A stretch of DNA of 64,000 nt from Gemmatimonadota bacterium (GTDB lineage: Bacteria > Gemmatimonadota > Gemmatimonadetes > Gemmatimonadales > GWC2-71-9), in NCBI GenBank assembly GCA_041484445.1, contig JBGPHP010000001.1, positions 4,150 through 68,149 on the forward strand. Reading direction: 5' to 3'. Of this stretch, positions 8,285 to 59,783 are shown one piece after another. The first letter of the stretch is position 1, and each line of letters starts with the position of its first letter. The notes under the pieces are model-generated. The model saw only the letters and a list, made by a program, of their open reading frames with translations. It was not told the DNA's origin and made no database searches. Position numbers and translations under genes: made by a program.

Positions 8285-8360
8285 CACTCTGCGGCACGAC
8301 CGACGGAACCCCGGCCAGATATCGCTTGAGTCTGCTGGGGCATGCTGGGAGTGGGGACCG

Positions 8361-9107
8361 CTAGCAGGCGGAATCCTGCTGCTGGGCATCCCAACAGAGC
8401 ACGCTGCCACCGCCGAGCCGCACGCCGCCTGTTCCTGCCGTCGGATTCCAGTGCAGCAGGAAGTTGTCGGGCGAGTTGGTCGCGACCCACTCGATCTGAC
8501 GATACGGCTCGTTCCAGGTGTAGGTGAGCACGCCGTCCGGTCCTTTGGTGAACTGCAGGTAGTTGGTGACCCCGTCGTAGCTCCACTGGATCGATGCGGT
8601 ATCGGCGGGACTCGCGCCCGCCGGATCCTCGATCACCCAGTACCCCGGGCTCCCGTAGACGCTCGCCAGCCCGGAATACCACTTGTAGTCGGAGAGCGGC
8701 GGAGTCCGCCCCGGCGCGGACAGGTACATGATCCAGCCGTTGCTGATGCCGACGGGGCCGCCCAGGAGCGACCCGTGGTAGGCCTGGCCTCCCGCCGTCG
8801 TGTCGAAGTCCCATTGCCAGTAGTCGCCCTGGTTGCTGGGCTGCTGCGCTTCGGCCGCGCGCAGCGTGGCCAGCGGAACCGCGAGTAGGCGGTTGATCGC
8901 CGTGTCGACGAAGGTGATCCGGTCGAGGGCAAGATCCCAGTTCGCCGTCGATCCGCCGGGCGCCGGTGTGTGCGTGTGGAAGAACGAGACATCGGCATCG
9001 AGCGACTGGACGGGCGGCAGAATGGGCTGGGCGCCGCCGCCCAGCATCTCTGATTTGACGTCGCAGGCAGCGAGGGCCAGCACGAGGAGGATCGCAGGCT
9101 TCACCAT
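8361..9107 (-). CDS. Lipoprotein, function unknown
   Basis: ATG at 9107 gives MVKPAILLVLALAAC, a lipobox with Cys. 248 aa, Trp/Tyr/Gly-rich, ends in Cys. The upstream part of the 471-aa track ORF is Arg-rich shadow. Confidence 0.7.
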   Translation of the reverse strand: MVKPAILLVLALAACDVKSEMLGGGAQPILPPVQSLDADVSFFHTHTPAPGGSTANWDLALDRITFVDTAINRLLAVPLATLRAAEAQQPSNQGDYWQWDFDTTAGGQAYHGSLLGGPVGISNGWIMYLSAPGRTPPLSDYKWYSGLASVYGSPGYWVIEDPAGASPADTASIQWSYDGVTNYLQFTKGPDGVLTYTWNEPYRQIEWVATNSPDNFLLHWNPTAGTGGVRLGGGSVLCWDAQQQDSAC

Positions 9108-22161: not shown

Positions 22162-23367
22162 TCAGGGAGTCCGGGACGACCAGGAGAAGCCCTGTGGACG
22201 GAGCTTCAAGGAGAAGGTGCCGCGCGACCACGGCAGCACGACGCTGTCGCCGCGCTGCTCGATGCGCTCCACCGGCACCCGCACCCCGCCCACCACGGCG
22301 CGCACCACGCGGCCGTGCTCCACGGCGATCGTGAAGGCCCCGGCGGGGTCGGAGGCGTGCACCACGAAATAGGACGGTACGAGGGCGCCGGGGCGCAGGG
22401 CATCGAGTGTCCCCGGCAACAACGCCTCTCCGGCGACGGCGAGCAGCGCCGCGGTGATTCCGCCGCCGGTGGCGAGCGCGGCCAAGCCCCGCCCCGCCGG
22501 GACGCGGGGGCCAGGCCGGGTCAGCCGCTCGAGTCGGGCCGCGAGGGATCCTCCGGTCGCCGCGAGCGCCGGTGCCGTCGCGTCCGCGCGCAATACCTCG
22601 AGTCGCGCCAGGGCGCGGGCATACGTGCGCGGATCCCCCACCGCCCGGACGGCGATTTCGTCGCAGCTCGCTTCCCGCTCGTGCCGCACAGCGCCCGATA
22701 CCCACCACCCGGCGGGATGGAAGCACAGCAACGACTCCACCAGCACCTGGATCAGGTTGGCCAGGCCATCGTGGCGTCGCACGTGTCCCAGCTCGTGCGC
22801 CAGGATCGCCTCGAGCTCACGGGCCTCGAGGGGGGCCAGCGTGGTGGGGATGAGGATGCGTGGGCGCCGCGTGCCGATCAGCGTCGGCACGGTCACGGCG
22901 CTCGAGAGGGCGATCGCCACGCGACGGTCGACGCCGACGCGGTGCGCGGCGCGAGCGAGGGCGTCGATCCATAGCTGCGGCGCGGGCTGCGTGCCCCCTC
23001 GACCGAGTCGAGCGGTCAGCCACCAGCCGCCGATCCAGCGCACCAGCATGATGGCCGCCAGCACGACCCACACCGCGGCGAGCCAGCGAGCCGCGGGCGT
23101 GAGCGCGTCGTACACGCCGGCCAGCAGCGCCGGGGCGGCCGCCGCTCCGCCGACCGCGAGCGACGGCCGATGCCGGCCGGCCCAGGCGAGGTAGCCTGCG
23201 TCGAGTACGGGGAGCAGCAGGAGCAGTAGCAGCGTCGCGTACGCCGCGGCGTAGCGCACCCGCGCGCCCAGCCCCCCGACCCCGAGTCCGAGCGCCAGTC
23301 CGCCGGCCAGGAGTACCGCCTGCCAGCTGAAGTGGACGAGCGCCCATCCCCACAGGGCGAGGCTCAC
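22162..23367 (-). CDS. BlaR1-like M56 family membrane sensor-peptidase
   Basis: 401 aa, multi-TM. M56 zinc motif ILAHELGHVRRHD. 4-nt overlap (ATGA-type) with the upstream BlaI-like gene. Confidence 0.88.
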   Translation of the reverse strand: MSLALWGWALVHFSWQAVLLAGGLALGLGVGGLGARVRYAAAYATLLLLLLLPVLDAGYLAWAGRHRPSLAVGGAAAAPALLAGVYDALTPAARWLAAVWVVLAAIMLVRWIGGWWLTARLGRGGTQPAPQLWIDALARAAHRVGVDRRVAIALSSAVTVPTLIGTRRPRILIPTTLAPLEARELEAILAHELGHVRRHDGLANLIQVLVESLLCFHPAGWWVSGAVRHEREASCDEIAVRAVGDPRTYARALARLEVLRADATAPALAATGGSLAARLERLTRPGPRVPAGRGLAALATGGGITAALLAVAGEALLPGTLDALRPGALVPSYFVVHASDPAGAFTIAVEHGRVVRAVVGGVRVPVERIEQRGDSVVLPWSRGTFSLKLRPQGFSWSSRTP

Positions 23368-23756
23368 GTGCGCTCCCGGTCCAGACGAGCGAGCAGCGCG
23401 CGCACTGCCGCCAGCTCGGCGCCGCGCGCCGGCCGGCTCGACAGCGCCCGCAGCGCGAGTCGCGCGGCCGAACCGCCGAACGCGCGCAGGGCGAGGTCGT
23501 CCACCAAGCGCCGTTGTGTGCGCTCCGAGGGCTCGGCGGCGGCGTAGATGTGGGTGCGCGACGACTTCTCGCGCGACACGAGCCCCTTGGCGTGCATGAT
23601 CTGGAGCAGTTTCAGCACGGTCGTGTACGCCGTGTCCTGTCCCCGTCCCAGGGCGACGCGGACGTCACGAACGGTGCTCGGGCCCCGGGTCCACAGGACC
23701 CCGAGGATCTCGAGCTCCGCCCCGGTGGGAAGCGGCGGCCCGCGTCGCGCTGTCAT
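23364..23756 (-). CDS. BlaI/MecI/CopY family transcriptional repressor
   Basis: 130 aa. Winged-helix N-terminus ELEILGVLWTRGPSTVRDV...YTTVLKLLQIMHAKGLV. Paired with the M56 gene. Confidence 0.88.
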   Translation of the reverse strand: MTARRGPPLPTGAELEILGVLWTRGPSTVRDVRVALGRGQDTAYTTVLKLLQIMHAKGLVSREKSSRTHIYAAAEPSERTQRRLVDDLALRAFGGSAARLALRALSSRPARGAELAAVRALLARLDRERT

Positions 23757-38995: not shown

Positions 38996-40894
38996 TCACC
39001 CTGCCCCAGCGGCCTCCACGAGGCGCTTCCGCTGACCCGGCAACACCAGGTCCTGCTTGACGACCTCCCGTACGATCCGGGCGACGAACCCGTAGCCCCG
39101 CCCGTCGGCGACGATCCACCGGTTCCATTCCAGCTCGTCGAGCCCTCCCGTCGCCTCTTCCATCGCGAGTCCGGTGGCACGTTGTAGTCGATCCGCCGTG
39201 ACGCTTCCCCCGAGCACGGCAAGGGCCTGCAGCAGCCGCTGAGCGGCAGGGCCGAGGCGCCGGAATCCGACCCGGATAGCGCCCACCACAGTCTCGGGCA
39301 GATCGCCGGGCAGGGTCTGGTCGAGCGTGCGGAAGGCCTCCGGCCAGGCACCACGGACCTTCGTGAGATCCAGGCCGGCGGCGACCGCGCTCAACAACTC
39401 CACCACGAGCAGCGGCAAGCCGGCCGAATCGGTACTCACCCGCCGGGTGAGGCGCTCCAACGCGGCCTCGTCGTAGTCCGGCATAGCCCAGTGAGCCAGC
39501 GCTTTGATCTCGGCGTTGCCGAGTGCGGCGAGCCGTACGACGCCGCCCGCCACGTCGCGGCCGAGGGTCGCGCGCAGCTCCTCCAGCTCGGGACGTGCCG
39601 CGGCACCATTCGAGGTACAGAGGACGTACAGCGGGCGGTCGGCCAGGTCCCGCAGCGCGGCGCCGACTGCGAGGACGGAATCACGATCCAGCAGCTCAAC
39701 GTCGTCCACCACCAGCGTCACCGGCTGCGCCGCGAGCGCCGCGCTCAGCACTTCGCTGAGCGCCCAGGCCGGCGGGCCTTCGGCGGAGACGCGGCGAGCG
39801 GCGGTGAAGCGGTCGGCCCACTCAGGGAGGCGCTCGATGAACCACGCCAGCGCGCCCGGTGCCGCACCGCCGACGCCACCCGCGTCGAGCAACCCGCCCC
39901 GGGCGAGACCGAGAATCCCACTCCAGGGCGTGGCGAGATCGCTCTCGACGGCCCGGATCACGGCCGTGGCCACTCCCTCGAGACGCATCCGAGACGTGAT
40001 CTCCTCGGCCAGGCGCGACTTTCCCACTCCGGCGTCGCCGACCAGGACCGTCGCACCCGCGCGCCCGGCGTCCCGTCCGAGTCGCCATGCGGCGATCAGG
40101 CGCTCCAGCTCCGCGCTCCTCCCGGTCAGTGGGGCGCGGCGTCGGTCGGACGGCTGCTCTCGTCCCCGGCTGCGCAGCACTCCCGGCGTCCGCCGAATCC
40201 GCTCGGCCAGGTCGCTGCACGATGCGCTGGGCCGGGTCCCCACCTCCGTCGCGAGCCGCGATGCGAGCTCGTCGTATTCCCGGAGCGCCCCGGCGTAGTC
40301 CCCGTCGAGCGCCAGCGCGCGCATCAGGCTCACCACCGCGGCTTCAGCGCAGGGGGCGATGGCCACGGCGCGGCGGGCGGCGCCGGCCGCCGCGCGCTGT
40401 GAGCCGCCGTCCACCTCCGCTTGAGCGAGTCGCAGCAGCGCGTCGATCGCGCGCCCGTTCCAGGATCGTCGCTCGCCGCTGAGCCACTCTTCGAATCCGG
40501 TCGCCCCCGGCACGGCGAGCCCCTCGGCGAACGTCCCGGTCACCAGCGCGGCGGCGTCACGCCAGTGTTCCCCGGCGACGAGGCGCGCGAACTCATCGGT
40601 GTCGAGCCGCACGACGTCGGGCGCGAGCCGCACCTGGTCCGCGACGGTATCGAGGGAGTGTTCGCCGACGGTCTGCCGCAACGTCGAAAGCGCGACGGTC
40701 AGCGAACGCCGTGACGCGTGGTCCGGCTTGTCGGGCCACAACAGGCCCACCAGGTGATCGCGCGTGCGGCTCCGCTTGGGCGAGCACGCCAGGTACACGA
40801 GCAGGGCGAGGTTCTTGCGCCACAACAGCTCAGCGGGGGGAGCGGCTCCGTTCACGCTGACGCGGATCGGGCCGAGCAGCTCGAGGTCGATCAT
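38996..40894 (-). CDS. AfsR/SARP-like regulator: winged-helix DNA-binding domain plus BTAD plus P-loop ATPase plus helical C-terminus
   Basis: ATG at 40894 (MIDLELLGPIRVSVNG...LVGLLWPD) gives an OmpR-type wHTH/SARP domain. The BTAD region ends ALREYDELASRLATEVGTRP. Walker A GDAGVGKSRL and Walker B LVVDDVELLD. ATGA overlap with the upstream kinase gene. Confidence 0.8.
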   Translation of the reverse strand: MIDLELLGPIRVSVNGAAPPAELLWRKNLALLVYLACSPKRSRTRDHLVGLLWPDKPDHASRRSLTVALSTLRQTVGEHSLDTVADQVRLAPDVVRLDTDEFARLVAGEHWRDAAALVTGTFAEGLAVPGATGFEEWLSGERRSWNGRAIDALLRLAQAEVDGGSQRAAAGAARRAVAIAPCAEAAVVSLMRALALDGDYAGALREYDELASRLATEVGTRPSASCSDLAERIRRTPGVLRSRGREQPSDRRRAPLTGRSAELERLIAAWRLGRDAGRAGATVLVGDAGVGKSRLAEEITSRMRLEGVATAVIRAVESDLATPWSGILGLARGGLLDAGGVGGAAPGALAWFIERLPEWADRFTAARRVSAEGPPAWALSEVLSAALAAQPVTLVVDDVELLDRDSVLAVGAALRDLADRPLYVLCTSNGAAARPELEELRATLGRDVAGGVVRLAALGNAEIKALAHWAMPDYDEAALERLTRRVSTDSAGLPLLVVELLSAVAAGLDLTKVRGAWPEAFRTLDQTLPGDLPETVVGAIRVGFRRLGPAAQRLLQALAVLGGSVTADRLQRATGLAMEEATGGLDELEWNRWIVADGRGYGFVARIVREVVKQDLVLPGQRKRLVEAAGAG

Positions 40895-43590
40895 CCCGCC
40901 GGCACCCTGCAGTCCCGGGCCGTGGCAGCTCGCGCGCTGTCCGCTCGGGCGGCATAGAGAGGCTCCGCGTTCGCCCACAGCCACGCCACCTCGCGCAGCA
41001 GGGCGCATTCCCCCGCCGCGGCGCTGAACCGGAGGCGACGCCACCGCCCCAGCGTGCCGAACGCCCAGTCCACCTCCATCGGCTGTGGCCCACCGGTCGG
41101 GAGCGAAATGCCGTCCGAGCTCTCGTACCAGATCAGCTCGAGATCCGCGTCGTGCGGCTCACCGACCCGTTCCCGCCACTCCGCCCGCAGCAAATGGAGC
41201 ACGGTGCGGAAACACGGGTCGCCGACCCACGCTGCGGGAAGCTCGATGAGACCATCACTCTGTACGATCGCATCCCCGTAGCGGCCCGCCAGAGCGGTGT
41301 CATAGGCGCGGAGCAGTCCGGTGAGCGATGCCGGCGCTCCCACTTCGAACGCCGGCCGCGCGGCCCCGAAACGTCGCGCGAGAAGCGCCGCCATCCAGCC
41401 GGCGCGAGCGCGCAGGCTCGCGGGCGCGCGACTCGCAAAGACCTGGAGCCGGTGTATCAGATCCGGCCACGCGGGGGCGCCCGAATCGGGATCGAACATC
41501 CGCAGCACCGCGTCGATCTCGAGTCCTAACAAGTCGAAGTCTGGGTCTCCGAATTCGGTGTGGATGCGCGCCAGTGTCCGGCGCGCCAGCTCCGGCCGCC
41601 CGGCGGTGAGGTGTCCGAACACCTGGGCGACCATCGCCGACGGACGATGATAGTCGCGCGCTTCGAGCTGCTCGCCGAGCCACACGGCACCGTTCGGCGC
41701 CGCAAAGTGATTGAGGTAGCGTGCGCCGGCATCCAGGGGCTCGTTGCTCCGGCCGGCGGCGGCGCCGACGAGCGATGCCGTGCGTCGGGCCGCGTCGGCG
41801 GGTGGCAAGAAGCGCCAGGCGAATGCGGCCTGGAGGAGATCTCGCATGCCGCTCGAGGCGGCTCCGGGGGGACCGAGGGCTCCCAGGGTGTCGAGCGCGG
41901 CCCGAGCCGACGACTCGTTGCCCTCAGCGATCCACAACCAGGCGAGGTGCTCCCACGCCGGCGCGAAATCGCGCCGGATTTCCGTTACTCTCGCGAATTC
42001 CACCGAGGCACTCAGACGCGGGCGACCGACGAGCGGGCCGCGATGCAGCAGCTCGTCACCCAACCGGAACGGGGCGAACAGAAAGCCGGGGGAGCGCCGG
42101 GCGAGGGCGTCGAGCGAATCGAGCCGAGGGTCGAGGGTCAACAGCTCAGCCCGGATCAAGGTTTGATAGTCTGGCGGGAAGCGATCGAGCTGTGCCCGGT
42201 ATTGCAGGGCGTCGCCGGTATCCGGCGGCAGTGCGAGGAAGCGGGCGACTTCGGCATGGCGCCAGGCGCACAGCCCGCACGAATCGTCGAGCGCTGCCGC
42301 TTCCGCGTAACCGAGGTATGCCGAGTCCAACCAAGCGCGCGCGAACGCCTTCTCGGCGCCGAGGAACGGGCGCAACGCGTCGGGGCGGCGCGGCAGGACG
42401 CGGACCGGGAGCCGCGGATCGAGCGGTCTCGCGCTGTACAGCCGCACCAGGATACTGTCGGCGAGGAGGTCAGCCGCCGGCCGCCACGCGGTGTCGGCGC
42501 TCGTGAGCGAAACCGGCGGCTGGCCCGGAAGCTGCACCCGGACGGCCAGCCCGGCCACCGAAACGCTCAGCGACCCCGACGCGACCGTCTTCGCCCGTCG
42601 CACCGGTGCGGGACCCAAGACCGTGAAATCGGGGAACCCCGTCAACCGTCCGGCGATGTGGAAGGCGATCGAGTCGCCCAGGCTCGCCGCGGCTCCGCTG
42701 ACGCGAAACCGCTCGATCCGCACGTCCACCTGTGGACTGCGGGGAAACGGGAACAGCCGCAGCGACACCGCGGCGACCACGACGACAGCGCCGGCATACC
42801 ACCACCCCGACGGGACAACCGACCGGCGCCACAGCGCGTGTTCAAACGCGCCCGCGCTGTGCCAGCGCTCGTCCGGGGACAGTTCGAGCGCGCGGCTCAG
42901 GGCGCGGCGGAGCTCCGGCGGGATGGCCGCAAGATCGGACTCAGTACCCTCCCAGTAACGTCCGGTCACCGCCTCGTACAGGACCATGCCGACGAGATAC
43001 AGGTCGGTCTGCGGATACTCGCGCCCGACGATCTGCTCCGGCGCCATGTATCGTCGCGTGCCCATCACCTGGCCGGGCTGGGTCTGGAGGGAGCCGGAGT
43101 CGGACTGCGATTTCGCGATACCGAAGTCCACCAGCACGCCCCGGCCGCGCACCAGGAAGATGTTGGAAGGCTTCACGTCCCGATGAATCACGCCGCGGCC
43201 GTGCGAGGCGTGCAGCGCGTCCAGCATGTCCCGGCCGAGGGAGAGCACTTCGGGAATCTCCAGCCGCCCGCGCGTCAGGCGCTTGGCCAGAGTCTCGCCG
43301 TCGAGGTACTCCATGATGTAGTAGATGAAGGGGTCGGTGTCCCGGCCCACGTCGTAGATGCGGACGATGTTGGGATGCTCGAACTCCGCCAGCGTGCGGG
43401 CTTCGTGGAGGAAGCGACGGGCCGCTTGTGCGCTGGCATTCTCGGGCAGGAGCGCTTTCACGGCCACCGGCCGGTCCAGAGCGGTGTCGTGTGCCAGGTA
43501 CACCGTCCCCATCCCGCCGCTCCCCAGCTCGCGTTGCAGCTGGAACCGGGGAGCGAGGAACTCTCGGAGCTGCTCGAAGAACGAGGCCAT
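40891..43590 (-). CDS. Membrane receptor Ser/Thr protein kinase with a ~600-aa extracytoplasmic region
   Basis: GSGGMGTVY, AVK, HRDVKPSNIF, DFG and APE motifs. A single TM (WWYAGAVVVVAAVSLRLFPF) follows the kinase domain. ATG at 43590 (MASFFEQL), with an alternative ATG at 43674 overlapping the upstream stop. Confidence 0.88.
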   Translation of the reverse strand: MASFFEQLREFLAPRFQLQRELGSGGMGTVYLAHDTALDRPVAVKALLPENASAQAARRFLHEARTLAEFEHPNIVRIYDVGRDTDPFIYYIMEYLDGETLAKRLTRGRLEIPEVLSLGRDMLDALHASHGRGVIHRDVKPSNIFLVRGRGVLVDFGIAKSQSDSGSLQTQPGQVMGTRRYMAPEQIVGREYPQTDLYLVGMVLYEAVTGRYWEGTESDLAAIPPELRRALSRALELSPDERWHSAGAFEHALWRRSVVPSGWWYAGAVVVVAAVSLRLFPFPRSPQVDVRIERFRVSGAAASLGDSIAFHIAGRLTGFPDFTVLGPAPVRRAKTVASGSLSVSVAGLAVRVQLPGQPPVSLTSADTAWRPAADLLADSILVRLYSARPLDPRLPVRVLPRRPDALRPFLGAEKAFARAWLDSAYLGYAEAAALDDSCGLCAWRHAEVARFLALPPDTGDALQYRAQLDRFPPDYQTLIRAELLTLDPRLDSLDALARRSPGFLFAPFRLGDELLHRGPLVGRPRLSASVEFARVTEIRRDFAPAWEHLAWLWIAEGNESSARAALDTLGALGPPGAASSGMRDLLQAAFAWRFLPPADAARRTASLVGAAAGRSNEPLDAGARYLNHFAAPNGAVWLGEQLEARDYHRPSAMVAQVFGHLTAGRPELARRTLARIHTEFGDPDFDLLGLEIDAVLRMFDPDSGAPAWPDLIHRLQVFASRAPASLRARAGWMAALLARRFGAARPAFEVGAPASLTGLLRAYDTALAGRYGDAIVQSDGLIELPAAWVGDPCFRTVLHLLRAEWRERVGEPHDADLELIWYESSDGISLPTGGPQPMEVDWAFGTLGRWRRLRFSAAAGECALLREVAWLWANAEPLYAARADSARAATARDCRVPAG

Positions 43591-43673
43591 GGCCGGCGGC
43601 CCCGCCAATGTAGCCTCGGGGGCCGCCGGCACCAGTTGCAGCCACGGACGCCACCGCGCCGCGACGCCTGCCA

Positions 43674-44852
43674 TTATTCGGCCACGTCAGCCCGTTCCCG
43701 CCACGGTCCAATGGTCGGCAGCAGGAACGTGGTGACGAGCCCGGCGTGATCCGAGGGCCAGAGGCCGCCGGCGGTCCGGTCGCCCGGCCGGTCACCCACG
43801 ACTTCGCGCCGCAGCGGGACGGCGAGTCGCGGCAGATTCCGTGTGAAGATGAAATCGATCCGCTGATTCAGGGTGGGCTGTGGATTGCCGAGATCCGCGC
43901 TCTCGCAGCACGTGGCGCCCGGATCGCGCTGGTGCGGTCGTAGCCAGCTGTCCGCAAAACCCGCCCCCGTGACCATGCCGTAGGACGGGGTCGCGGCGCC
44001 GGGCACCTGCCCCAGCACATCGGAATTGAAATCGCCCACGAGGATCGTCGGCCGGGTCTCCGACTGGAGCAGCCCCAGCAGCTCCTGCGCTTGCCCCACC
44101 TGTACGGGGACGGCCAGCTGCGCTTCGAGGTGCGTGGAGACGAACCGGAACGTACGACCGTGGATCGTCGCCTCTACGGACGCCCACCCTTCGAACACCC
44201 CCGTCTGCACGGGACCGAAGCTCACGGGAATGAACGCCTGGTATTTGCCGTGCTGCGCGTTGGCAAACTGCACGTCGGCGCGGGCGAGCACGGCGTCCCG
44301 ATCGGTCAGGCGGACGTCGTCGAAGGTCGGGTTTCCCGTTCCGTCGATGCCGGCGAACGCCGGGAGCTCCACGTCCGTGGTGGAGTCCGCGGCGGCGACG
44401 ACGTAGTGGAGGCCGCGCGCCGCGAGCGAATCCACCAGCAGCGCCAGAAAGTCGTACACGACGGCCGTCGCCGGCGTCGCTCCACCGAACACCGCATCCC
44501 CGGGATGCTGCACCCGGTACAGGGCCGCTTCCTGCAGGCCGACGAGGTGCGGCCGGCGGCGCGCGATCAGCGCCGCCAGGGCGCCGGCGCGCGCCGGGAA
44601 GTTCGTATGCTGCGCCAGGGCCCACACCCCGGCGGCGACGAACGGAACTTGATCGAGCGGCGTGGCCAGCAGCGGCGTCGGATCGGTACCGTAGTAGACG
44701 TTGTACGTCATGACCGTGAGGCCGGGGCCATCTCGGTCGTCGTGGTCATCGTTTCCCTGATTGGACCGGCTCGCGCTGATTCCCGCGATATCGCGGTCGG
44801 CGCAAGCCGCCGCCAGCACGGCGGCGGCGAGAAGCGAGCAGAGTGTGCGCAT
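43674..44852 (-). CDS. Endonuclease/exonuclease/phosphatase (EEP) family lipoprotein
   Basis: Lipobox LAAAC. LTVMTYNVYYG N-terminal motif and C-terminal SDHAGLV motif. Confidence 0.85.
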   Translation of the reverse strand: MRTLCSLLAAAVLAAACADRDIAGISASRSNQGNDDHDDRDGPGLTVMTYNVYYGTDPTPLLATPLDQVPFVAAGVWALAQHTNFPARAGALAALIARRRPHLVGLQEAALYRVQHPGDAVFGGATPATAVVYDFLALLVDSLAARGLHYVVAAADSTTDVELPAFAGIDGTGNPTFDDVRLTDRDAVLARADVQFANAQHGKYQAFIPVSFGPVQTGVFEGWASVEATIHGRTFRFVSTHLEAQLAVPVQVGQAQELLGLLQSETRPTILVGDFNSDVLGQVPGAATPSYGMVTGAGFADSWLRPHQRDPGATCCESADLGNPQPTLNQRIDFIFTRNLPRLAVPLRREVVGDRPGDRTAGGLWPSDHAGLVTTFLLPTIGPWRERADVAE

Positions 44853-44926: not shown

Positions 44927-44962
44927 TTGCTAAGTTTTTAGCATGATGCTAGAATTTTAGCA
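44927..44962 (+). promoter_or_regulatory. Sigma70-like promoter (TTGCTA-17-TAGAAT) overlapped by two tandem TGCTA(A/G)-N4-TTAGCA palindromes
   Basis: The -35 is at 44927-44932 and the -10 at 44950-44955. Palindromes are TGCTAAGTTTTTAGCA (44928-44943) and TGCTAGAATTTTAGCA (44947-44962). This is an AT-rich island 20 nt upstream of the BlaI-like ATG, with GGAG in between. Confidence 0.65.
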
Positions 44963-44982
44963 CTTCATCCGGAGCTGCGAAC

Positions 44983-45375: not shown

Positions 45376-47853
45376 ATGCGCGATTTCGTCCTCGACTCGC
45401 TGGCCAAAGCAACGCTGCTGCTCGGCGCCGCGGGCCTGGTCACCCTGGCGTGGCGTGCGGCCGCGCCGCGGCACTTCGTCTGGACGCTCGGACTCACCGG
45501 CGCCCTGGTCCTCCCGGCGGCCAGGCTGTTCGGGCCGGCGTGGCGCGTGCCGGTGTTCCCGGCACCCGCGCTGATGGCGGAGCCGGCGCCGCCGGCGCCC
45601 GGCGTGAATGATCCCGCGACGACGACCGTCGCCGGACCGCTGCCTGCTGTCACCAGCGCCACGGCCTCGATCGTGGCGGCGGCACCCGCAGCCGCACGCC
45701 CGAGGCTCGGCCCGTGGCTGATCGCCGTCTGGCTCGTCGGGATGGCGCTCGTGCTCGGAGCGTACATGGCCGGCGCCTGGCGCGTGGCGCGGATCGCGCG
45801 CCGCGCCCACCCCATCCAGTCGCGGGACTGGCTCGAGCTCCTGGCCTCCATCGCCGCCCAACTGGGGCTGCGCACGCCGGTGCAGCTGCTCGCCGCAGCG
45901 GGTCCCGCGATGCCGATGACCTGGGGCATCAGGCGGCCGGTCGTCCTGCTCCCGGCCGACGCGGAGCAGTGGTCCGCCGAGCGCCGCCGGGACGTCCTAC
46001 TCCACGAGCTGGCCCATGTCGAGCGGCGCGATTGCCTGACGCAGCTCCTCGCCGTCTGCGCCTGCGCCGCGTACTGGTTCCATCCGCTCGTGTGGGTTGC
46101 CGCGGCGCGGCTGCGCATCGAACGCGAGCGCGCCTGCGACGACCGGGTCCTCGCCGGCGGCGCCAAGCCGTCCGACTATGCCGGGCATCTGCTCGACATC
46201 GCGCGCACGTTGCGGGCGGCGCCGGTCACCGGACTCGCCAGTGTCGCCATGGCCCGGCCGTCGCAGCTCGGCAGCCGCCTCCTCGACGTGCTCGATCCCG
46301 CGCGGCGTCGCGACGCGTTGAACCGCCGGCTGGTGGTCCCCAGCGCTCTCGCCGCAGCCCTCGTCGTGCTGCCGCTCGCCGTCCTGCGTCCCACGCGCCT
46401 GTCGGCGCATCAGGCGGCCCGGACGACGCTGCCGTGGACCTCGAGTGACGATCCGCAGGAAACCCTGCAGGCGGTGCATCGCGCGATGGCGCAGGAGCCT
46501 GCGCTCCACCATCCAACCCCCGATTCGAGCGGGTGCCAGCCGCGTTCGTCCCGCAACAGCTCCGGCAGCACCAGCAGCTCCAGCACCTCCAGCGAACACA
46601 GCACGGGGCACCGCACACAGCTGCTGTACAAGACCGGCAGCTGCTCGCTGGAGCTCGTGGCGGAGGGGGGATTCCACTTCACGACCGACTACACCGACAT
46701 CTCCCAGATCGATGCCGGCGGCTCGGTCGTGCTGGAGCGACGCGACGGCAACCAGGAGCGCCGCGTGGAGATGCGACCCGGTTCGGGCGGTGTGGCGCAC
46801 CGCTGGTTCGTGGACGACACCGAGCGTCCCTACGATGCCGAGGCCCGCGCCTGGCTCACCGCGACGCTCACGGAGCTGCTGCGCCGGACGGGATATGCCG
46901 GCGAAGCGCGCAGCCGCTGGATCCTGCAGACCCGCGGGCAGGACGCCCTGTTCCAGGAGATCACCCAGATCTCGGGGGATTACGCGAAGCGCCTCTACTA
47001 TCAGGAGCTCGTGGCCGATGGCCGGTTGGATCCAGCCGGCGTCGCGAGAGTCGTGACACAGGCGGGGAGCGAGATCTCCAGCGACTATGACCTGGCGGAG
47101 ATCCTGGTGCTCGTGGCGGCCCGCTACCCATTGAGCGAGCCCTCCCGCACCGCCTTCGTGACCGCGGCCGATCACATCCAGTCCGATTATGACCGCCACC
47201 GGGTGCTCGCGGTGGTGCTGGCCGGGAAGAGCCTGCCCGATGAGCTCGCGACCGCCGTCCTGGGGTCAGCCGGTCATATCGAGTCGGACTACGACCTCGC
47301 CGAAGTGCTCATCGTGCTCATCCAGAAACACCCGATCACGGCGGCGATGAGCCCCGCGTTTTTCCAGGCCGTAAACGGCATCGAGTCCGATTACGACCGC
47401 CGTCGCGTCCTGGCGACGCTCCTCGCGCAACGCGAGACGCCGCCGGCGCTGGTCGCCGCCGCCCTCACGTCGGCGGGACAGATCTCGTCGGATTACGATC
47501 GGGCGGAGCTGCTGGTGCAGGTGGCCGAGGGCCCCGGCGTGGATGAAACCTCGCGGAGCCCTTTCTTCGCGGCGGCCGACGGCATCGGCTCGGACTACGA
47601 CCACGCCCGGGTGCTGACGGCCTTGAGCGAGCACGCGGGCCTGGCCGAGTCCGCGGCGGCGGCCGTGATCGCCTCCGCTCGTCGCATCGGCTCGGCCTAC
47701 GATTGCGCCAACGTGCTGGTCGCGGTCGCGCAGCACCTGCGCCTCACGAGCGCGTTGCGACAGGCCTACATCGAGGCGGCGAACCAGATCGGCTCCGAAT
47801 CGGACCGTAACCGCGCTCTCGCCGCCCTGGCAGGCAGCTCGCAGCTCGACTGA
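45376..47853 (+). CDS. BlaR1-like M56 sensor-peptidase with a long C-terminal extension (Ser-rich linker, ~110-aa domain, 34-aa repeat array)
   Basis: 825 aa. M56 motif LLHELAHVERRD. Linker SSRNSSGSTSSSSTSSEHS. C-terminal SDYD repeats. Confidence 0.88.
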   Translation: MRDFVLDSLAKATLLLGAAGLVTLAWRAAAPRHFVWTLGLTGALVLPAARLFGPAWRVPVFPAPALMAEPAPPAPGVNDPATTTVAGPLPAVTSATASIVAAAPAAARPRLGPWLIAVWLVGMALVLGAYMAGAWRVARIARRAHPIQSRDWLELLASIAAQLGLRTPVQLLAAAGPAMPMTWGIRRPVVLLPADAEQWSAERRRDVLLHELAHVERRDCLTQLLAVCACAAYWFHPLVWVAAARLRIERERACDDRVLAGGAKPSDYAGHLLDIARTLRAAPVTGLASVAMARPSQLGSRLLDVLDPARRRDALNRRLVVPSALAAALVVLPLAVLRPTRLSAHQAARTTLPWTSSDDPQETLQAVHRAMAQEPALHHPTPDSSGCQPRSSRNSSGSTSSSSTSSEHSTGHRTQLLYKTGSCSLELVAEGGFHFTTDYTDISQIDAGGSVVLERRDGNQERRVEMRPGSGGVAHRWFVDDTERPYDAEARAWLTATLTELLRRTGYAGEARSRWILQTRGQDALFQEITQISGDYAKRLYYQELVADGRLDPAGVARVVTQAGSEISSDYDLAEILVLVAARYPLSEPSRTAFVTAADHIQSDYDRHRVLAVVLAGKSLPDELATAVLGSAGHIESDYDLAEVLIVLIQKHPITAAMSPAFFQAVNGIESDYDRRRVLATLLAQRETPPALVAAALTSAGQISSDYDRAELLVQVAEGPGVDETSRSPFFAAADGIGSDYDHARVLTALSEHAGLAESAAAAVIASARRIGSAYDCANVLVAVAQHLRLTSALRQAYIEAANQIGSESDRNRALAALAGSSQLD
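46969..47850 (+). repeat. Protein-level tandem array: one 35-aa, seven exact 34-aa and one truncated repeat (I.SDYD...VL...)
   Basis: Repeats start ISGDYAK, ISSDYDLAEIL, IQSDYDRHRVL, IESDYDLAEVL, IESDYDRRRVL, ISSDYDRAELL, IGSDYDHARVL, IGSAYDCANVL and IGSESDRNRAL. The summed lengths (294 aa) run exactly to the stop codon. Confidence 0.85.
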
Positions 47854-57918: not shown

Positions 57919-58701
57919 CTACGGGTCGAAGTGCTGCAGCCGACTGCGATAGCGGCGGCTGAGCTTGAGCTTCGCCCCGTCGCTCAAGACGACGACCCAG
58001 TCTCCATGCGACCACGGCCGCAGCTCGGCCACGCGGTCCACGTTCACGATCGCCGAGCGGCTCACCCGCACGAAACGGCGGGGATCGAGCCGCTGCTCCA
58101 GGCGATCGAGCGTGGTTCGGACGCGGTAGGTCTCGCGGCCGGCGTGCAGCACCGCGTAATTGCGCGCCGACTCGATCCGGTCGACGCGCGCCAGCGGCAA
58201 CAGCACCGCGCGGTCCGCCTGTTCCACGAGCAGCCGCTCCAGCCGTTCCGGCCGTTCGCGCCGGACGTCGGCCAGGAGCTGCGTGAGACGGCGCCGGTCT
58301 TCCCCGTCGCGCCGCCGACCGACGGCCTCCTTCGCCCGCGCGAGCGCCAGCGTAAGTCGCTCCACATCGAACGGCTTCAGCACGTAGTCCACGGCGTGGA
58401 TCTCGAACGCGCGGACGGCGTATTCGTCGAACGCGGTGACGAACACGACGTGCGGCCGGACCCCGGGGTCGAGCGCCTCCAGCACACCGAAGCCGTCCAG
58501 CCCCGGCATCTGCACGTCCAAAAAGACGAGATCCGGCGATTCCTCGCGCACCAGGTCCACGGCGCGGACACCGTCCGCGGCCTCGAAGATCGTGCCGATC
58601 TCCGGATCGCCCGCCACGAAGCGGCGCACCTTCGCCCGCGCCGGCCGCTCGTCGTCCACGATCAGCACCGAGAGGCCGGCGGACCGCCCTGCCGCGCTCA
58701 C
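57919..58701 (-). CDS. LytR/AlgR family response regulator (second copy)
   Basis: GTG at 58701 (VSAAGRSAGLSVLIVDDERP...) overlaps the kinase stop (GTGA). REC domain plus LytTR with FVRVSRSAIVNVDRV. The remainder of the 642-aa track ORF is shadow. Confidence 0.85.
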   Translation of the reverse strand: MSAAGRSAGLSVLIVDDERPARAKVRRFVAGDPEIGTIFEAADGVRAVDLVREESPDLVFLDVQMPGLDGFGVLEALDPGVRPHVVFVTAFDEYAVRAFEIHAVDYVLKPFDVERLTLALARAKEAVGRRRDGEDRRRLTQLLADVRRERPERLERLLVEQADRAVLLPLARVDRIESARNYAVLHAGRETYRVRTTLDRLEQRLDPRRFVRVSRSAIVNVDRVAELRPWSHGDWVVVLSDGAKLKLSRRYRSRLQHFDP

Positions 58702-59783
58702 GGCGCCTCCCGGAACGGCAGCTCGACCGAGACGCGCGCCCCCCCGCCCTGCCGGTTTTCCAGGCGGAGCGACTGCTGCGCGCCGTACAACTGCTCCAGG
58801 CGGCGCGCCGTATTGGCGAGTCCTACGCCCTTCCCGATCGCTTCCTCCGGTGTCCCGTGGATGCCGTGACCGTTGTCTTCCACCTCGAGCACCAGGCGCC
58901 CGTCGTCGCGTCGCGCCCGCACCGCGATGCGCGCCGCCATCCCGGGCCCCGGATCGCCGTGGCGCAGAGCGTTCTCGACCAATGGCTGCAACACGAGCGC
59001 CGGAACCGCGGCGCGACGCGCCGCCGGCGCCGCCGACACCACGACCGACAAGCGGTCCCCGAAGCGGGCCCGCATGATGTCGAGATAGAGCTCGAGCGTC
59101 TCGAGCTCCGCATCGAGCGCGATCTCTCCTCCGCTCGGACGTCGCAGCGTGCGGCGCAGCAGATCCGCGAGACGCATGAGCATCGTGTCCGCCGCGGCGA
59201 CGTCCTCGTACATCACGGATGAGATCGTGTTCAAGACATTGAACAGAAAGTGCGGTCGCAGCTGTCCTTCCAGCGCCTCGAGTCGCACCCGGGTGAGCTC
59301 GGTCTCGACCTGCGCCAGGCGCAGCTCGCGGTCGCGCGACTCGCGATAGCGGTCGAACAGGTAGGCGAGGCCCATGAGCAGCGTGAACGCCAGCATGTCC
59401 ATGGGGAATTCCATCGCGAAGCGCAACGGCATGCGGCCGTAGTCGTACGGACCCAGTCCAGCCAGCGGGAACACCATGTGGCGGGTGAGGAAGTTCCACA
59501 TGGTATGAGCGACGGAGAAGAACGGCAGGATCGCCGCGTACACGGCGAAGAGCCGCCAGCCCGACCAGCCTCGGGCGCGCGCGCGGCGGGCCAGGGCGAT
59601 CGCCGCCAGGAACAGGACGGCGGCCCCGTAGGCCGCCGTCATTTCCTCGATCAGCGGGACGCGGAACGGCTCGACATGACCGCTGGCCAGGACGTCGAGA
59701 TAGTGGTAGGTGAACTCCAGCAGCCCGACGACGCTGAACGACCCCGCCCACAACAGTCCGAGCCGCCACGCTGAGCGCTTCAT
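58698..59783 (-). CDS. LytS-type sensor histidine kinase (second copy)
   Basis: 361 aa. TM-rich N-terminus. GQLRPHFLFNVLNTI H-box. QPLVENALRHG. Confidence 0.88.
   Translation of the reverse strand: MKRSAWRLGLLWAGSFSVVGLLEFTYHYLDVLASGHVEPFRVPLIEEMTAAYGAAVLFLAAIALARRARARGWSGWRLFAVYAAILPFFSVAHTMWNFLTRHMVFPLAGLGPYDYGRMPLRFAMEFPMDMLAFTLLMGLAYLFDRYRESRDRELRLAQVETELTRVRLEALEGQLRPHFLFNVLNTISSVMYEDVAAADTMLMRLADLLRRTLRRPSGGEIALDAELETLELYLDIMRARFGDRLSVVVSAAPAARRAAVPALVLQPLVENALRHGDPGPGMAARIAVRARRDDGRLVLEVEDNGHGIHGTPEEAIGKGVGLANTARRLEQLYGAQQSLRLENRQGGGARVSVELPFREAP

What the first reader, a model, noticed from the sequence alone, without database searches (positions are those of the whole stretch)
38996..44852. 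Membrane receptor Ser/Thr kinase translationally coupled to an AfsR-like SARP-ATPase regulator (AfsK/AfsR-type pair outside Actinobacteria?)
The kinase gene (40891..43590) ends in an ATGA overlap with the start (40894) of a 632-aa protein. That protein combines an OmpR-type winged helix plus BTAD (the SARP architecture) with a P-loop ATPase (GDAGVGKSRL / LVVDDVELLD) and a helical C-terminus.

This architecture is that of Streptomyces AfsR, which is phosphorylated by the Ser/Thr kinase AfsK (established knowledge, recalled). Here the kinase differs from cytosolic AfsK. It carries one TM helix and a ~600-aa extracytoplasmic region, so the pair would be a complete outside-to-DNA pathway encoded as a coupled operon.

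An EEP-family lipoprotein gene lies immediately upstream. Its TAA overlaps an alternative kinase ATG at 43674, so it may belong to the same transcript.
Basis: partly seen in the sequence, partly recalled or inferred. Interest (0 to 1): 0.55.

Follow-up and report, generated by a model that had tools for sequence, protein, structure and literature searches.

The report
Receptor kinase coupled to SARP-type regulator
A membrane-spanning Ser/Thr kinase gene overlaps by four bases the gene of a SARP-type DNA-binding ATPase, and the pair is conserved across Gemmatimonadales soil bacteria, which extends a signalling scheme known from Mycobacterium and Streptomyces to a phylum where it has not been described.

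Summary
On the minus strand, an EEP lipoprotein gene (44852..43674) is followed by a Hanks kinase (43590..40891) and a 632-aa regulator (40894..38996). The last two share an ATGA stop/start overlap.

The regulator has an OmpR-type winged helix, a BTAD and a STAND-type ATPase module, and stops after the winged-helix domain of that module. It has no TPR sensor, so it resembles a "medium" SARP more than AfsR.

The kinase keeps all catalytic motifs. It has one conserved membrane helix and a roughly 600-aa outer domain made of a small alpha/beta unit plus a TPR-like solenoid.

Of 76 evaluable Gemmatimonadota loci, 40 keep the exact A/GTGA overlap and 8 more keep the same kinase upstream. Six loci carry a second kinase/regulator pair arranged head to head.

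Two relatives lost the kinase by in-frame deletions. These left 28- and 30-codon mini-ORFs that still overlap the regulator start.

The closest precedent is the embR-pknH operon of M. tuberculosis, not AfsK/AfsR. Phosphotransfer, DNA targets and the signal are untested. The EEP gene is not a conserved operon member. I rate it a new variant of a known kind, of moderate interest.

The parts
40891..43590 (-). Hanks-type Ser/Thr kinase gene (899 aa from the preferred ATG at 43590; the alternative ATG at 43674 gives 927 aa)
   Evidence: ORF. Pkinase 139.5 bits. The catalytic residues K45, E63, HRD136-138, N143, DFG155-157 and E185 are invariant in 71 homologues. The fold matches PknA, PknB and PknI. 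The start choice rests.
42826..43542 (-). Cytoplasmic kinase domain (about aa 17-255). The activation loop (aa 158-178) carries a conserved [TS]170-x-P-G and G177-T178.
42742..42807 (-). Single predicted transmembrane helix (about aa 262-283), with Arg residues on its N-terminal side
   Evidence: Hydropathy. A hydrophobic segment sits at the same position in all 71 homologues.
40894..42735 (-). Extracytoplasmic sensor region (aa 286-899): a small alpha/beta unit (about 288-386) followed by an all-helical TPR-like solenoid (about 403-893). It holds the conserved motif ELxHRGPLxG, a CxxC at 438/441, and Cys862/Cys894.
   Evidence: AlphaFold model with mean pLDDT 88. Only weak TPR hits. Conserved residues.
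40891..40894 (-). ATGA overlap of the kinase stop and the regulator start (translational coupling)
   Evidence: Sequence. ATGA occurs in 21 and GTGA in 19 of the 40 coupled relatives. It is retained by the mini-ORFs in L001 and L002.
38996..40894 (-). SARP-STAND regulator gene (632 aa)
   Evidence: ORF. Pfam. More than 1000 homologues of about 630 aa. AlphaFold model with mean pLDDT 87.8.
40604..40894 (-). OmpR/PhoB-type winged-helix DNA-binding domain (aa 1-97). The recognition helix is aa 58-76, with conserved R62, S64 and R73.
   Evidence: Trans_reg_C 26.5 bits. Secondary structure. Foldseek hits to the AfsR SARP domain 8k60 (TM 0.66) and to EmbR. phmmer hit to EmbR 2fez.
40187..40603 (-). 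BTAD, the bacterial transcriptional activation domain (aa 98-236)
   Evidence: BTAD 55.9 bits
38999..40132 (-). STAND-type nucleotide-binding oligomerisation module (aa 255-632): P-loop domain, helical domain with a GxP-like SAGLPLL motif, and a winged-helix domain. No sensor domain follows.
   Evidence: AAA_16 55.4 bits. Conserved Walker A and B. Foldseek hits to Apaf-1, plant NLRs, MalT and ORC/Cdc6.
39296..39346 (-). Conserved low-confidence loop between the helical and winged-helix domains (aa 517-533, WPxPxxTLDQ[TS]LPGxLP). Candidate phospho-acceptor or docking motif (inference).
   Evidence: pLDDT below 50. W517, P518, T523, P529 and P533 are invariant in 70 sequences. Present in nearly all 76 loci.
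43591..43638 (-). Conserved non-coding element just upstream of the kinase ATG. It holds the 12-bp inverted repeat GCCGGCGGCCCC/GGGGCCGCCGGC (43630-43619 and 43603-43592) around a -10-like TACATT (43612-43607). Likely promoter or operator.
   Evidence: Nearly invariant in L081 and L005, with an indel. Retained in L001 and L002. A TACATT-like box recurs upstream of orthologues. The RNA fold is not exceptional, z = -1.3.
43674..44852 (-). EEP (Exo_endo_phos) gene with a lipoprotein-type signal. It adjoins the pair here but is not a conserved operon member.
   Evidence: Pfam. Hydrophobic N-terminus ending in Cys. A sigma-70-like promoter lies at 44981..44954 and no terminator precedes the kinase. 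Its position varies among relatives.

Best explanation
This is a two-gene signalling operon of Gemmatimonadales.

**Components.**
- The first gene encodes a bitopic receptor Hanks kinase. Its catalytic domain is cytoplasmic. Its roughly 600-aa TPR-like domain faces the periplasm.
- The second gene is translated by termination-reinitiation at the ATGA overlap. It encodes a cytoplasmic transcription factor built from a SARP DNA-binding/activation domain and a sensor-less STAND ATPase switch.

**Proposed mechanism (inferred).**
1. An unknown envelope or periplasmic cue binds the kinase's outer domain.
2. The kinase autophosphorylates its activation loop.
3. It then phosphorylates the regulator. 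A likely site is the conserved flexible loop between the helical and winged-helix domains, or elsewhere in the nucleotide-binding module.
4. Phosphorylation changes the ATP-dependent switch and oligomerisation.
5. The SARP domain then binds direct repeats near the -35 region of target promoters and recruits RNA polymerase, as shown for AfsR and EmbR.

**Shown here:** gene structure, domain architecture, intact catalytic and nucleotide-binding motifs, membrane topology by prediction, and conservation of the pairing and the overlap.

**Inferred:** phosphotransfer, the site, DNA binding, the targets and the signal.
For: **Architecture.** Pfam, predicted structure and fold matches agree.

**Active kinase.** All catalytic residues are invariant in 71 homologues.

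**Nucleotide switch.** Walker A and B are conserved.

**Topology.** One membrane segment is conserved in position in 71 of 71 homologues. Conserved Cys pairs in the outer domain fit an oxidising compartment.

**Pairing in 76 evaluable loci from different Gemmatimonadota genomes.**
- 40 loci keep the 4-nt overlap.
- 1 locus has a 16-nt gap.
- 7 loci have one inserted membrane-protein gene. In at least two of them that gene is itself ATGA-coupled to the regulator.

**Second arrangement.** Six loci carry a second regulator paralogue placed head to head with another Hanks kinase.

**Coupling matters.** In-frame kinase deletions in L001 and L002 preserve the start, the frame and the ATGA junction.

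**Shared motif.** The kinase activation loop and the regulator loop share a conserved [TS]-x-P-G. PknH substrates are reported to resemble its own autophosphorylation site.

**Precedents.** AfsR is phosphorylated by AfsK in its NOD and TPR domains. EmbR is phosphorylated by the operon partner PknH.
Against: - There is no direct evidence of phosphotransfer.
- The regulator has no FHA domain or other recognised phospho-docking module.
- About a third of related loci lack the orthologous kinase next to the regulator. L001 and L002 keep an intact regulator after losing the kinase. The regulator can therefore persist without a cis-encoded kinase.
- The loop motif is equally conserved in kinase-less loci, so it is not specifically tied to the neighbouring kinase.
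- In AfsR, phosphorylation has only modest effects on activation in vitro.
- No SARP-type direct repeats or target genes were identified. Neighbouring genes are not conserved.
- Trans_reg_C only just passes its Pfam cut-off.
Confidence: 0.55

Rival explanations
1. The two genes are co-expressed but are not a kinase-substrate pair. The regulator is switched only by nucleotide binding or an unknown cytoplasmic ligand. The kinase acts on other substrates, and the coupling only fixes their stoichiometry or co-regulation.
For: The regulator persists intact without the kinase in L001 and L002 and stands alone in other loci. More distant family members have no adjacent kinase, or only a small soluble one about 2 kb away. 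AfsR activation depends mainly on ATP and little on phosphorylation. Hanks kinases usually have many substrates.
Against: The tight 4-nt coupling is kept in 40 of 76 loci. The pairing recurs in a second, divergent gene arrangement with paralogous genes. Stoichiometric coupling is typical of interacting partners. A STAND module without a sensor needs some other input.
Confidence: 0.25
2. The SARP-STAND protein does not act as a transcription factor. It acts as a cytoplasmic scaffold or modulator of the kinase, comparable to EmbR2 or KbpA, which bind and inhibit their kinases.
For: Trans_reg_C is only marginal by Pfam (26.5 bits against a cut-off of 26.2). No binding site was found. EmbR2 and KbpA are precedents for kinase-binding inhibitors.
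Against: The winged helix is modelled with pLDDT above 90 and superposes on DNA-bound AfsR. The recognition helix keeps conserved basic residues (R62, R73) across the family. The regulator is retained after kinase loss.
Confidence: 0.08
3. The pair is an anti-phage defence module, a STAND NTPase plus a kinase, rather than a housekeeping signalling system.
For: STAND NTPases and Hanks kinases occur in defence systems. The kinase domain matches PADLOC kinase models such as PD-T4-6 and mad6.
Against: The PADLOC hits cover only the generic kinase domain, and the regulator matches no defence family. The pair is a vertically inherited gene pair present across many Gemmatimonadales genomes (520 loci in species-representative genomes) and has no mobile-element context. 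The effector part is a DNA-binding SARP domain.
Confidence: 0.03

Closest known systems
PknH / EmbR of Mycobacterium tuberculosis (embR Rv1267c and pknH Rv1266c in one operon)
   Same: A receptor-type Hanks kinase with one membrane helix and an extracellular sensor is encoded in the same operon as a SARP regulator (OmpR-type winged helix plus BTAD) that it phosphorylates. EmbR is the best sequence match in the PDB and a top structural match.
   Different: EmbR carries a C-terminal FHA domain that docks on phospho-PknH, whereas this regulator has a STAND ATPase module and no FHA. The gene order is reversed, regulator first in M. tuberculosis. The sensor domain is a TPR-like solenoid with no similarity detected to PknH's sensor. 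The phylum differs.
AfsK / AfsR of Streptomyces
   Same: AfsR combines a SARP domain with a STAND NOD and is phosphorylated by Hanks kinases in its NOD and TPR domains. ATP binding relieves autoinhibition. The AfsR SARP domain is the top structural match.
   Different: AfsR has a C-terminal TPR sensor that is absent here. AfsK scores 57 bits against a cut-off of 1300. By recalled knowledge, AfsK lacks a membrane-spanning receptor architecture. afsK and afsR are separated by two genes rather than overlapping.
'Medium' SARPs of actinomycetes (CdaR, CpkO, FdmR1; about 600 aa, SARP plus NB-ARC)
   Same: Same overall length and domain order, SARP domain plus nucleotide-binding module without TPR.
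   Different: Those are cluster-situated activators of antibiotic gene clusters in Actinobacteria with no dedicated kinase. The present family is Gemmatimonadota-specific, is not next to a conserved biosynthetic cluster, and is kinase-coupled.
STAND transcription factors (MalT, GutR) and NLR-type switches (Apaf-1, plant NLRs)
   Same: NBD-HD-WHD module with Walker A and B and a GxP-like motif. These proteins are structural matches.
   Different: Those proteins carry a C-terminal sensor domain (TPR, WD40, LRR or SUPR) that binds the inducer. Here the protein ends after the WHD, and a separate receptor kinase is the likely input.

Membership tests
SARP family regulators | N-terminal OmpR/PhoB-type winged-helix DNA-binding domain | tested here: met
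   Trans_reg_C 26.5 bits against a cut-off of 26.2. The model shows the beta-sheet/alpha1-3/wing topology with pLDDT above 90. Foldseek hit to the AfsR SARP domain 8k60, E = 6e-9, target TM 0.66.
SARP family regulators | BTAD following the winged helix | tested here: met
   PF03704 55.9 bits against a cut-off of 22.1. Aligns to EmbR over residues 2-236.
SARP family regulators | Binds direct repeats spaced at 11 bp that overlap the -35 region, and activates transcription through RNA polymerase contacts | not testable with these tools
   No target site could be derived. Neighbouring genes are not conserved, and the conserved element upstream of the kinase is an inverted repeat, not a direct repeat.
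SARP family regulators | Occurrence restricted to Actinobacteria, as stated in reviews | tested here: not met
   Reviews state the restriction. All named relatives here are Gemmatimonadota, apart from one 'Planctomycetota' label on a partial 1.8-kb contig.
AfsR-type large SARP (SARP + NOD + TPR) | STAND NOD with Walker A and B after the SARP domain | tested here: met
   AAA_16 55.4 bits. GxxGxGK[ST] and hhhhDD are conserved. Fold hits to Apaf-1, NLRs and MalT.
AfsR-type large SARP (SARP + NOD + TPR) | C-terminal TPR sensor domain | tested here: not met
   There is no TPR hit in the regulator. The model ends with the winged-helix domain at residue 632. The family length is uniformly about 630 aa.
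AfsR-type large SARP (SARP + NOD + TPR) | His-Asp activation switch in the NOD (reported for AfsR in a 2026 preprint) | tested here: inconclusive
   The preprint abstract describes the motif. No invariant His is present anywhere in the NOD of 70 family members. No residue-level alignment to the AfsR NOD was possible.
AfsK kinase | Full-length similarity to AfsK (NCBIfam equivalog NF053615) | tested here: not met
   57.4 bits against a cut-off of 1300, with only the kinase domain aligned.
Hanks-type Ser/Thr kinases | Catalytic Lys, HRD, DFG and APE motifs and the kinase fold | tested here: met
   Pkinase 139.5 bits. K45, HRD136-138, DFG155-157 and E185 are invariant. Foldseek top hits are PknA, PknB and PknI.
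PknH/EmbR-type operon | Kinase and SARP encoded in one operon | tested here: met
   ATGA overlap, conserved in 40 of 76 loci. The precedent is stated.
PknH/EmbR-type operon | FHA domain on the regulator mediating docking to the phosphorylated kinase | tested here: not met
   No FHA hit in the regulator.
STAND NTPases | NBD-HD-WHD core followed by a sensor or repeat domain | tested here: inconclusive
   The core is present and the sensor domain is absent. It is therefore a truncated, sensor-less STAND.
Anti-phage defence systems (PADLOC) | Match of both proteins to a defence-system model | tested here: not met
   The regulator has no hit, and the kinase matches only through its generic kinase domain.

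The most novel reading that the evidence does not exclude
The regulator is a sensor-less NLR/STAND-type switch. Its missing sensor is supplied in trans by the periplasmic TPR domain of a dedicated transmembrane kinase. Phosphorylation of the conserved flexible hinge (T523 / [TS]527-L-P-G) between the helical and winged-helix domains, rather than ligand binding, would flip the STAND switch and license the SARP domain to activate transcription. That would be a third type of outside-to-DNA pathway in diderm bacteria, alongside two-component and ECF-sigma systems, and a bacterial case of receptor-kinase control of an NLR-like module.
Probability: 0.25. Interest if true: 0.7.

Novelty: new variant of a known kind. 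Interest (0 to 1): 0.45.

Why it matters
Reviews describe SARP regulators as exclusive to Actinobacteria and tie them to antibiotic production.

Here a complete SARP-STAND protein forms a large, vertically inherited family in Gemmatimonadota. There are 520 loci in species-representative genomes. It is hard-wired to a receptor Ser/Thr kinase.

If the kinase controls the regulator, this is a simple, genetically compact model for two open questions:
- how Hanks kinases reach DNA in Gram-negative-type bacteria;
- how phosphorylation acts on STAND/NLR switches, which is still unresolved for AfsR.

The natural kinase-deletion variants offer a ready-made comparison. It would also give a first handle on signal transduction in an abundant but barely studied soil phylum.

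Tried and rejected
2. **Profile searches of the sensor domain.** Against PDB sequences and Pfam they gave only weak TPR matches and a non-significant FlgO-like hit, E = 1.7.
3. **Source contig lookup.** Looking up the exact kinase protein P0121 found nothing on record.
4. **Defence-system reading.** Rejected, because the regulator has no PADLOC match.
5. **Relaxation of the hinge-loop motif in kinase-less loci.** It is not relaxed, so the test neither supports nor refutes phosphorylation there.
6. **Conserved element upstream of the kinase as an RNA structure.** The folding energy is not exceptional, z = -1.3. No strict sigma-70 promoter or terminator was found between the EEP gene and the kinase.
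7. **Conserved neighbours as candidate regulon members.** None is conserved beyond the pair itself. The EEP gene recurs in only 13 of 80 loci and in varying positions.
8. **The 682-aa (GTG 41044) form of the regulator and the 927-aa form of the kinase.** Both were rejected on homologue N-termini and DNA-level conservation.
9. **Shine-Dalgarno-like motifs.** They are not clearly depleted before coupled starts: 13 of 40 coupled against 16 of 37 uncoupled.


Full report
**1. Observation**

Three minus-strand genes lie head to tail in a window of about 70% G+C:
- an EEP gene at 44852..43674 (392 aa);
- a kinase at 43674 or 43590..40891;

The kinase stop and the regulator start overlap as ATGA at 40894-40891. 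The EEP stop and an upstream ATG overlap as TAATG at 43676-43672.

Pfam confirms the stated domains:
- Regulator: Trans_reg_C just above its cut-off, plus BTAD and AAA_16.
- Kinase: Pkinase.
- Upstream gene: Exo_endo_phos.

Flanking genes are ordinary chromosomal genes:
- a LytS/LytTR-type two-component pair;
- a Lumazine_bd_2 protein;
- a BlaI/BlaR1-type pair;
- a radical-SAM enzyme;
- several peptidases.

**2. The regulator**

The best match among solved structures by sequence is EmbR of M. tuberculosis, over residues 2-236.

An AlphaFold model built from 70 homologues has mean pLDDT 87.8. It shows, in order:
- an OmpR-type winged helix (aa 1-97);
- a helical BTAD (to about aa 236);
- a disordered linker;
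- a five-stranded P-loop domain;
- a four-helix bundle;
- a winged-helix domain that ends the protein.

Foldseek puts the DNA-bound AfsR SARP domain (8k60, 8hvr) and EmbR first. Apaf-1, plant NLR resistosomes, MalT and ORC/Cdc6 follow for the C-terminal half.

Walker A and B and a GxP-like SAGLPLL motif are conserved. No TPR or other sensor domain follows.

The architecture is therefore SARP plus a sensor-less STAND module. This matches the 'medium' SARPs described in a review, not the SARP-NOD-TPR layout of AfsR.

**3. The kinase**

All catalytic residues are invariant in 71 homologues. The fold matches PknA, PknB and PknI.

There is one hydrophobic segment at about aa 262-283. It recurs at the same position in every homologue, although its sequence varies, and basic residues precede it. 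That places the C-terminal 600 aa outside the cytoplasm.

The outer region models confidently as a small alpha/beta unit followed by a long helical solenoid. Only weak TPR matches are found.

It carries an invariant ELxHRGPLxG motif and conserved cysteines:
- Cys862 and Cys894 are present throughout.
- A CxxC at 438/441 sits at a helix N-terminus in the closer subclade.

The conserved cysteines fit an oxidising compartment.

The kinase is not an AfsK orthologue.

**4. Which kinase start**

The 84 nt between the two candidate ATGs are almost identical in the window, in L081 (kinase 81% identical) and in L005 (65%). They lack the third-position changes seen just downstream and carry a 1-nt indel in L005. 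More distant homologues all begin at MxxFFE.

I therefore take 43590 as the start. The 48 nt before it form a conserved non-coding element: a 12-bp inverted repeat around a -10-like TACATT. Similar TACATT boxes, or a TTGACT-N18-ATGTTC arrangement placed after an upstream terminator hairpin, precede many orthologues. This suggests that the kinase-regulator pair is usually its own bicistronic unit.

In this window a sigma-70-like promoter lies upstream of the EEP gene, and no terminator separates EEP from the kinase. Read-through transcription is therefore possible.

**5. Conservation of the pairing**

The regulator has more than 1000 homologues. The best 120 are all about 630 aa long and at least 50% identical.

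A scan of species-representative genomes found 520 loci. The best 80 are all Gemmatimonadota, mostly Gemmatimonadales.

Classification of the 76 loci with enough upstream DNA:

| Class | Loci |
|---|---|
| Orthologous sensor kinase ending in a 4-nt overlap with the regulator start | 40 (21 ATGA, 19 GTGA) |
| Same kinase with a 16-nt gap | 1 |
| One extra membrane-protein gene between kinase and regulator | 7 (in at least two, it is itself ATGA-coupled to the regulator) |
| A different Hanks kinase within 6.5 kb upstream | 17 |
| No upstream kinase | 11 |

Six loci hold a second regulator paralogue, 43-48% identical, placed head to head with yet another Hanks kinase. The association thus recurs in an independent gene arrangement.

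An exhaustive profile search finds 15,752 cluster representatives at E <= 1e-30. The named members among the closest 150 are again Gemmatimonadota, apart from one 'Planctomycetota' label on a partial 1.8-kb contig.

More distant members of 696-752 aa have only a small soluble kinase 2 kb away, or none. The tight coupling is therefore a feature of the Gemmatimonadales clade.

**6. Natural kinase deletions**

L001 and L002 are the closest genome relatives of the regulator, at 76-77% identity. They have the EEP gene followed directly by the regulator.

Reading the DNA shows that several features are retained:
- the conserved upstream element;
- the kinase ATG;
- the first 11-20 codons;
- the final GGA-TGA.

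The remnants are in-frame mini-ORFs of 28 and 30 codons:
- MASFFEQFRDLLAPRFRLDRGAGTGFLG*
- MASFFEQFREFPAHDTGVPRPVAVKALLRG*

The two remnants keep different internal pieces, so neither derives from the other.

The deletions removed the kinase but kept the frame and the ATGA junction. This argues that regulator translation depends on the upstream ORF. It also shows that the regulator can be kept without its cis kinase.

**7. Mechanism**

The most economical reading follows the PknH-EmbR and AfsK-AfsR precedents. A periplasmic cue activates the kinase. The kinase phosphorylates the regulator. That changes the nucleotide switch and DNA binding.

One candidate site is the conserved but low-confidence loop between the helical and winged-helix domains (WPxPxxTLDQ[TS]LPGxLP). 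Its [TS]-L-P-G mirrors the conserved [TS]-x-P-G of the kinase activation loop. This is an inference only. The motif is equally conserved in kinase-less loci.

No FHA docking domain is present. No DNA target was found, and neighbouring genes are not conserved.

The rival readings are scored in the report sections:
- co-expression without phosphotransfer;
- a non-DNA-binding kinase modulator;
- a defence system.

The defence reading is weak.

**8. Comparison and novelty**

An operon of a SARP and a receptor kinase is known in M. tuberculosis. SARP-NOD proteins phosphorylated by Hanks kinases are known in Streptomyces.

What is new is the combination:
- a SARP fused to a sensor-less STAND module;
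- translational coupling to a TPR-type transmembrane kinase;
- conservation across an order of a non-actinobacterial phylum, although reviews state that SARPs are exclusive to actinomycetes.

I rate it a new variant of a known kind, of moderate interest.

The EEP gene recurs near the regulator in 13 of 80 loci but in changing positions. It is a loose associate, not an operon member.

Noticed in passing
L001:1156-1242 and L002:337-429: In the two closest genome relatives the kinase gene has been removed by different in-frame deletions. These leave 28- and 30-codon mini-ORFs that keep the kinase promoter element, the ATG and the ATGA overlap with the regulator start.
   Followed up: yes
window 43591-43638 (minus strand): This non-coding element upstream of the kinase ATG is nearly invariant in L081, L005, L001 and L002. 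It is a 12-bp inverted repeat GCCGGCGGCCCC/GGGGCCGCCGGC around a TACATT box. Whether it is a promoter, an operator or neither is unknown. Its RNA folding energy is not exceptional.
   Followed up: partly
L006, L007, L008, L026, L030, L063 (e.g. L063:9829-12387): A second full-length SARP-STAND paralogue (43-48% identical) lies 3-5 kb downstream of the first. In each case it is divergently paired with another Hanks kinase gene.
   Followed up: partly
L041:6221-6997, L018:5519-6139, L035:4885-5721 (also L024, L042, L058, L061): In seven loci a polytopic membrane protein gene of about 206-278 aa, with conserved His motifs (HAIHxAANAI, DEHWGHxELH) and no annotation, sits between kinase and regulator. 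In L024 and L042 its stop overlaps the regulator start as ATGA.
   Followed up: partly
window 43674-44852; L017, L025, L031, L052 (downstream of the regulator); L041, L042 (upstream, opposite strand); L081:9880-9990: An EEP lipoprotein homologue recurs next to the regulator in 13 of 80 loci, but in different positions and orientations. L081 keeps sequence resembling the 3' end of the EEP gene in front of the kinase. It might be a regulon member. This was not tested.
   Followed up: partly
window 40894-42735 (kinase aa 438/441, 862, 894): The outer domain has conserved cysteines. A CxxC at a helix N-terminus is invariant in homologues of at least 39% identity and is replaced by F..A in more distant orthologues. 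Cys862 and Cys894 lie in adjacent helices. They could be disulfides or a redox-sensitive site.
   Followed up: partly
window 45376-47853 (+): The BlaR1-type M56 peptidase (825 aa) has a long C-terminal region made of about eight tandem units of roughly 35 aa, each carrying an I-x-SDYD-x-x-x-[VL]L motif. No Pfam hit covers that region.
   Followed up: no
window 6032-8410 (-): A second Hanks kinase with clear TPR repeats (36% identical in the kinase domain) lies 33 kb away. It has no SARP-type partner.
   Followed up: partly
window 22162-23756 (-) and about 57949-59783 (-): The window contains second copies of a BlaI/BlaR1-like pair and of a LytS/LytTR-like two-component pair.
   Followed up: no
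L020:149-4951: In this locus the kinase N-terminal frame runs open through the regulator, giving a 1601-codon open frame. The sensor homology is interrupted. This is probably a frameshift or an assembly error rather than a true fusion.
   Followed up: no
window 40891-43674: The identical database protein P0121 (NCBI source) is annotated with the 927-aa start. The conservation pattern argues for the 899-aa start at 43590.
   Followed up: yes
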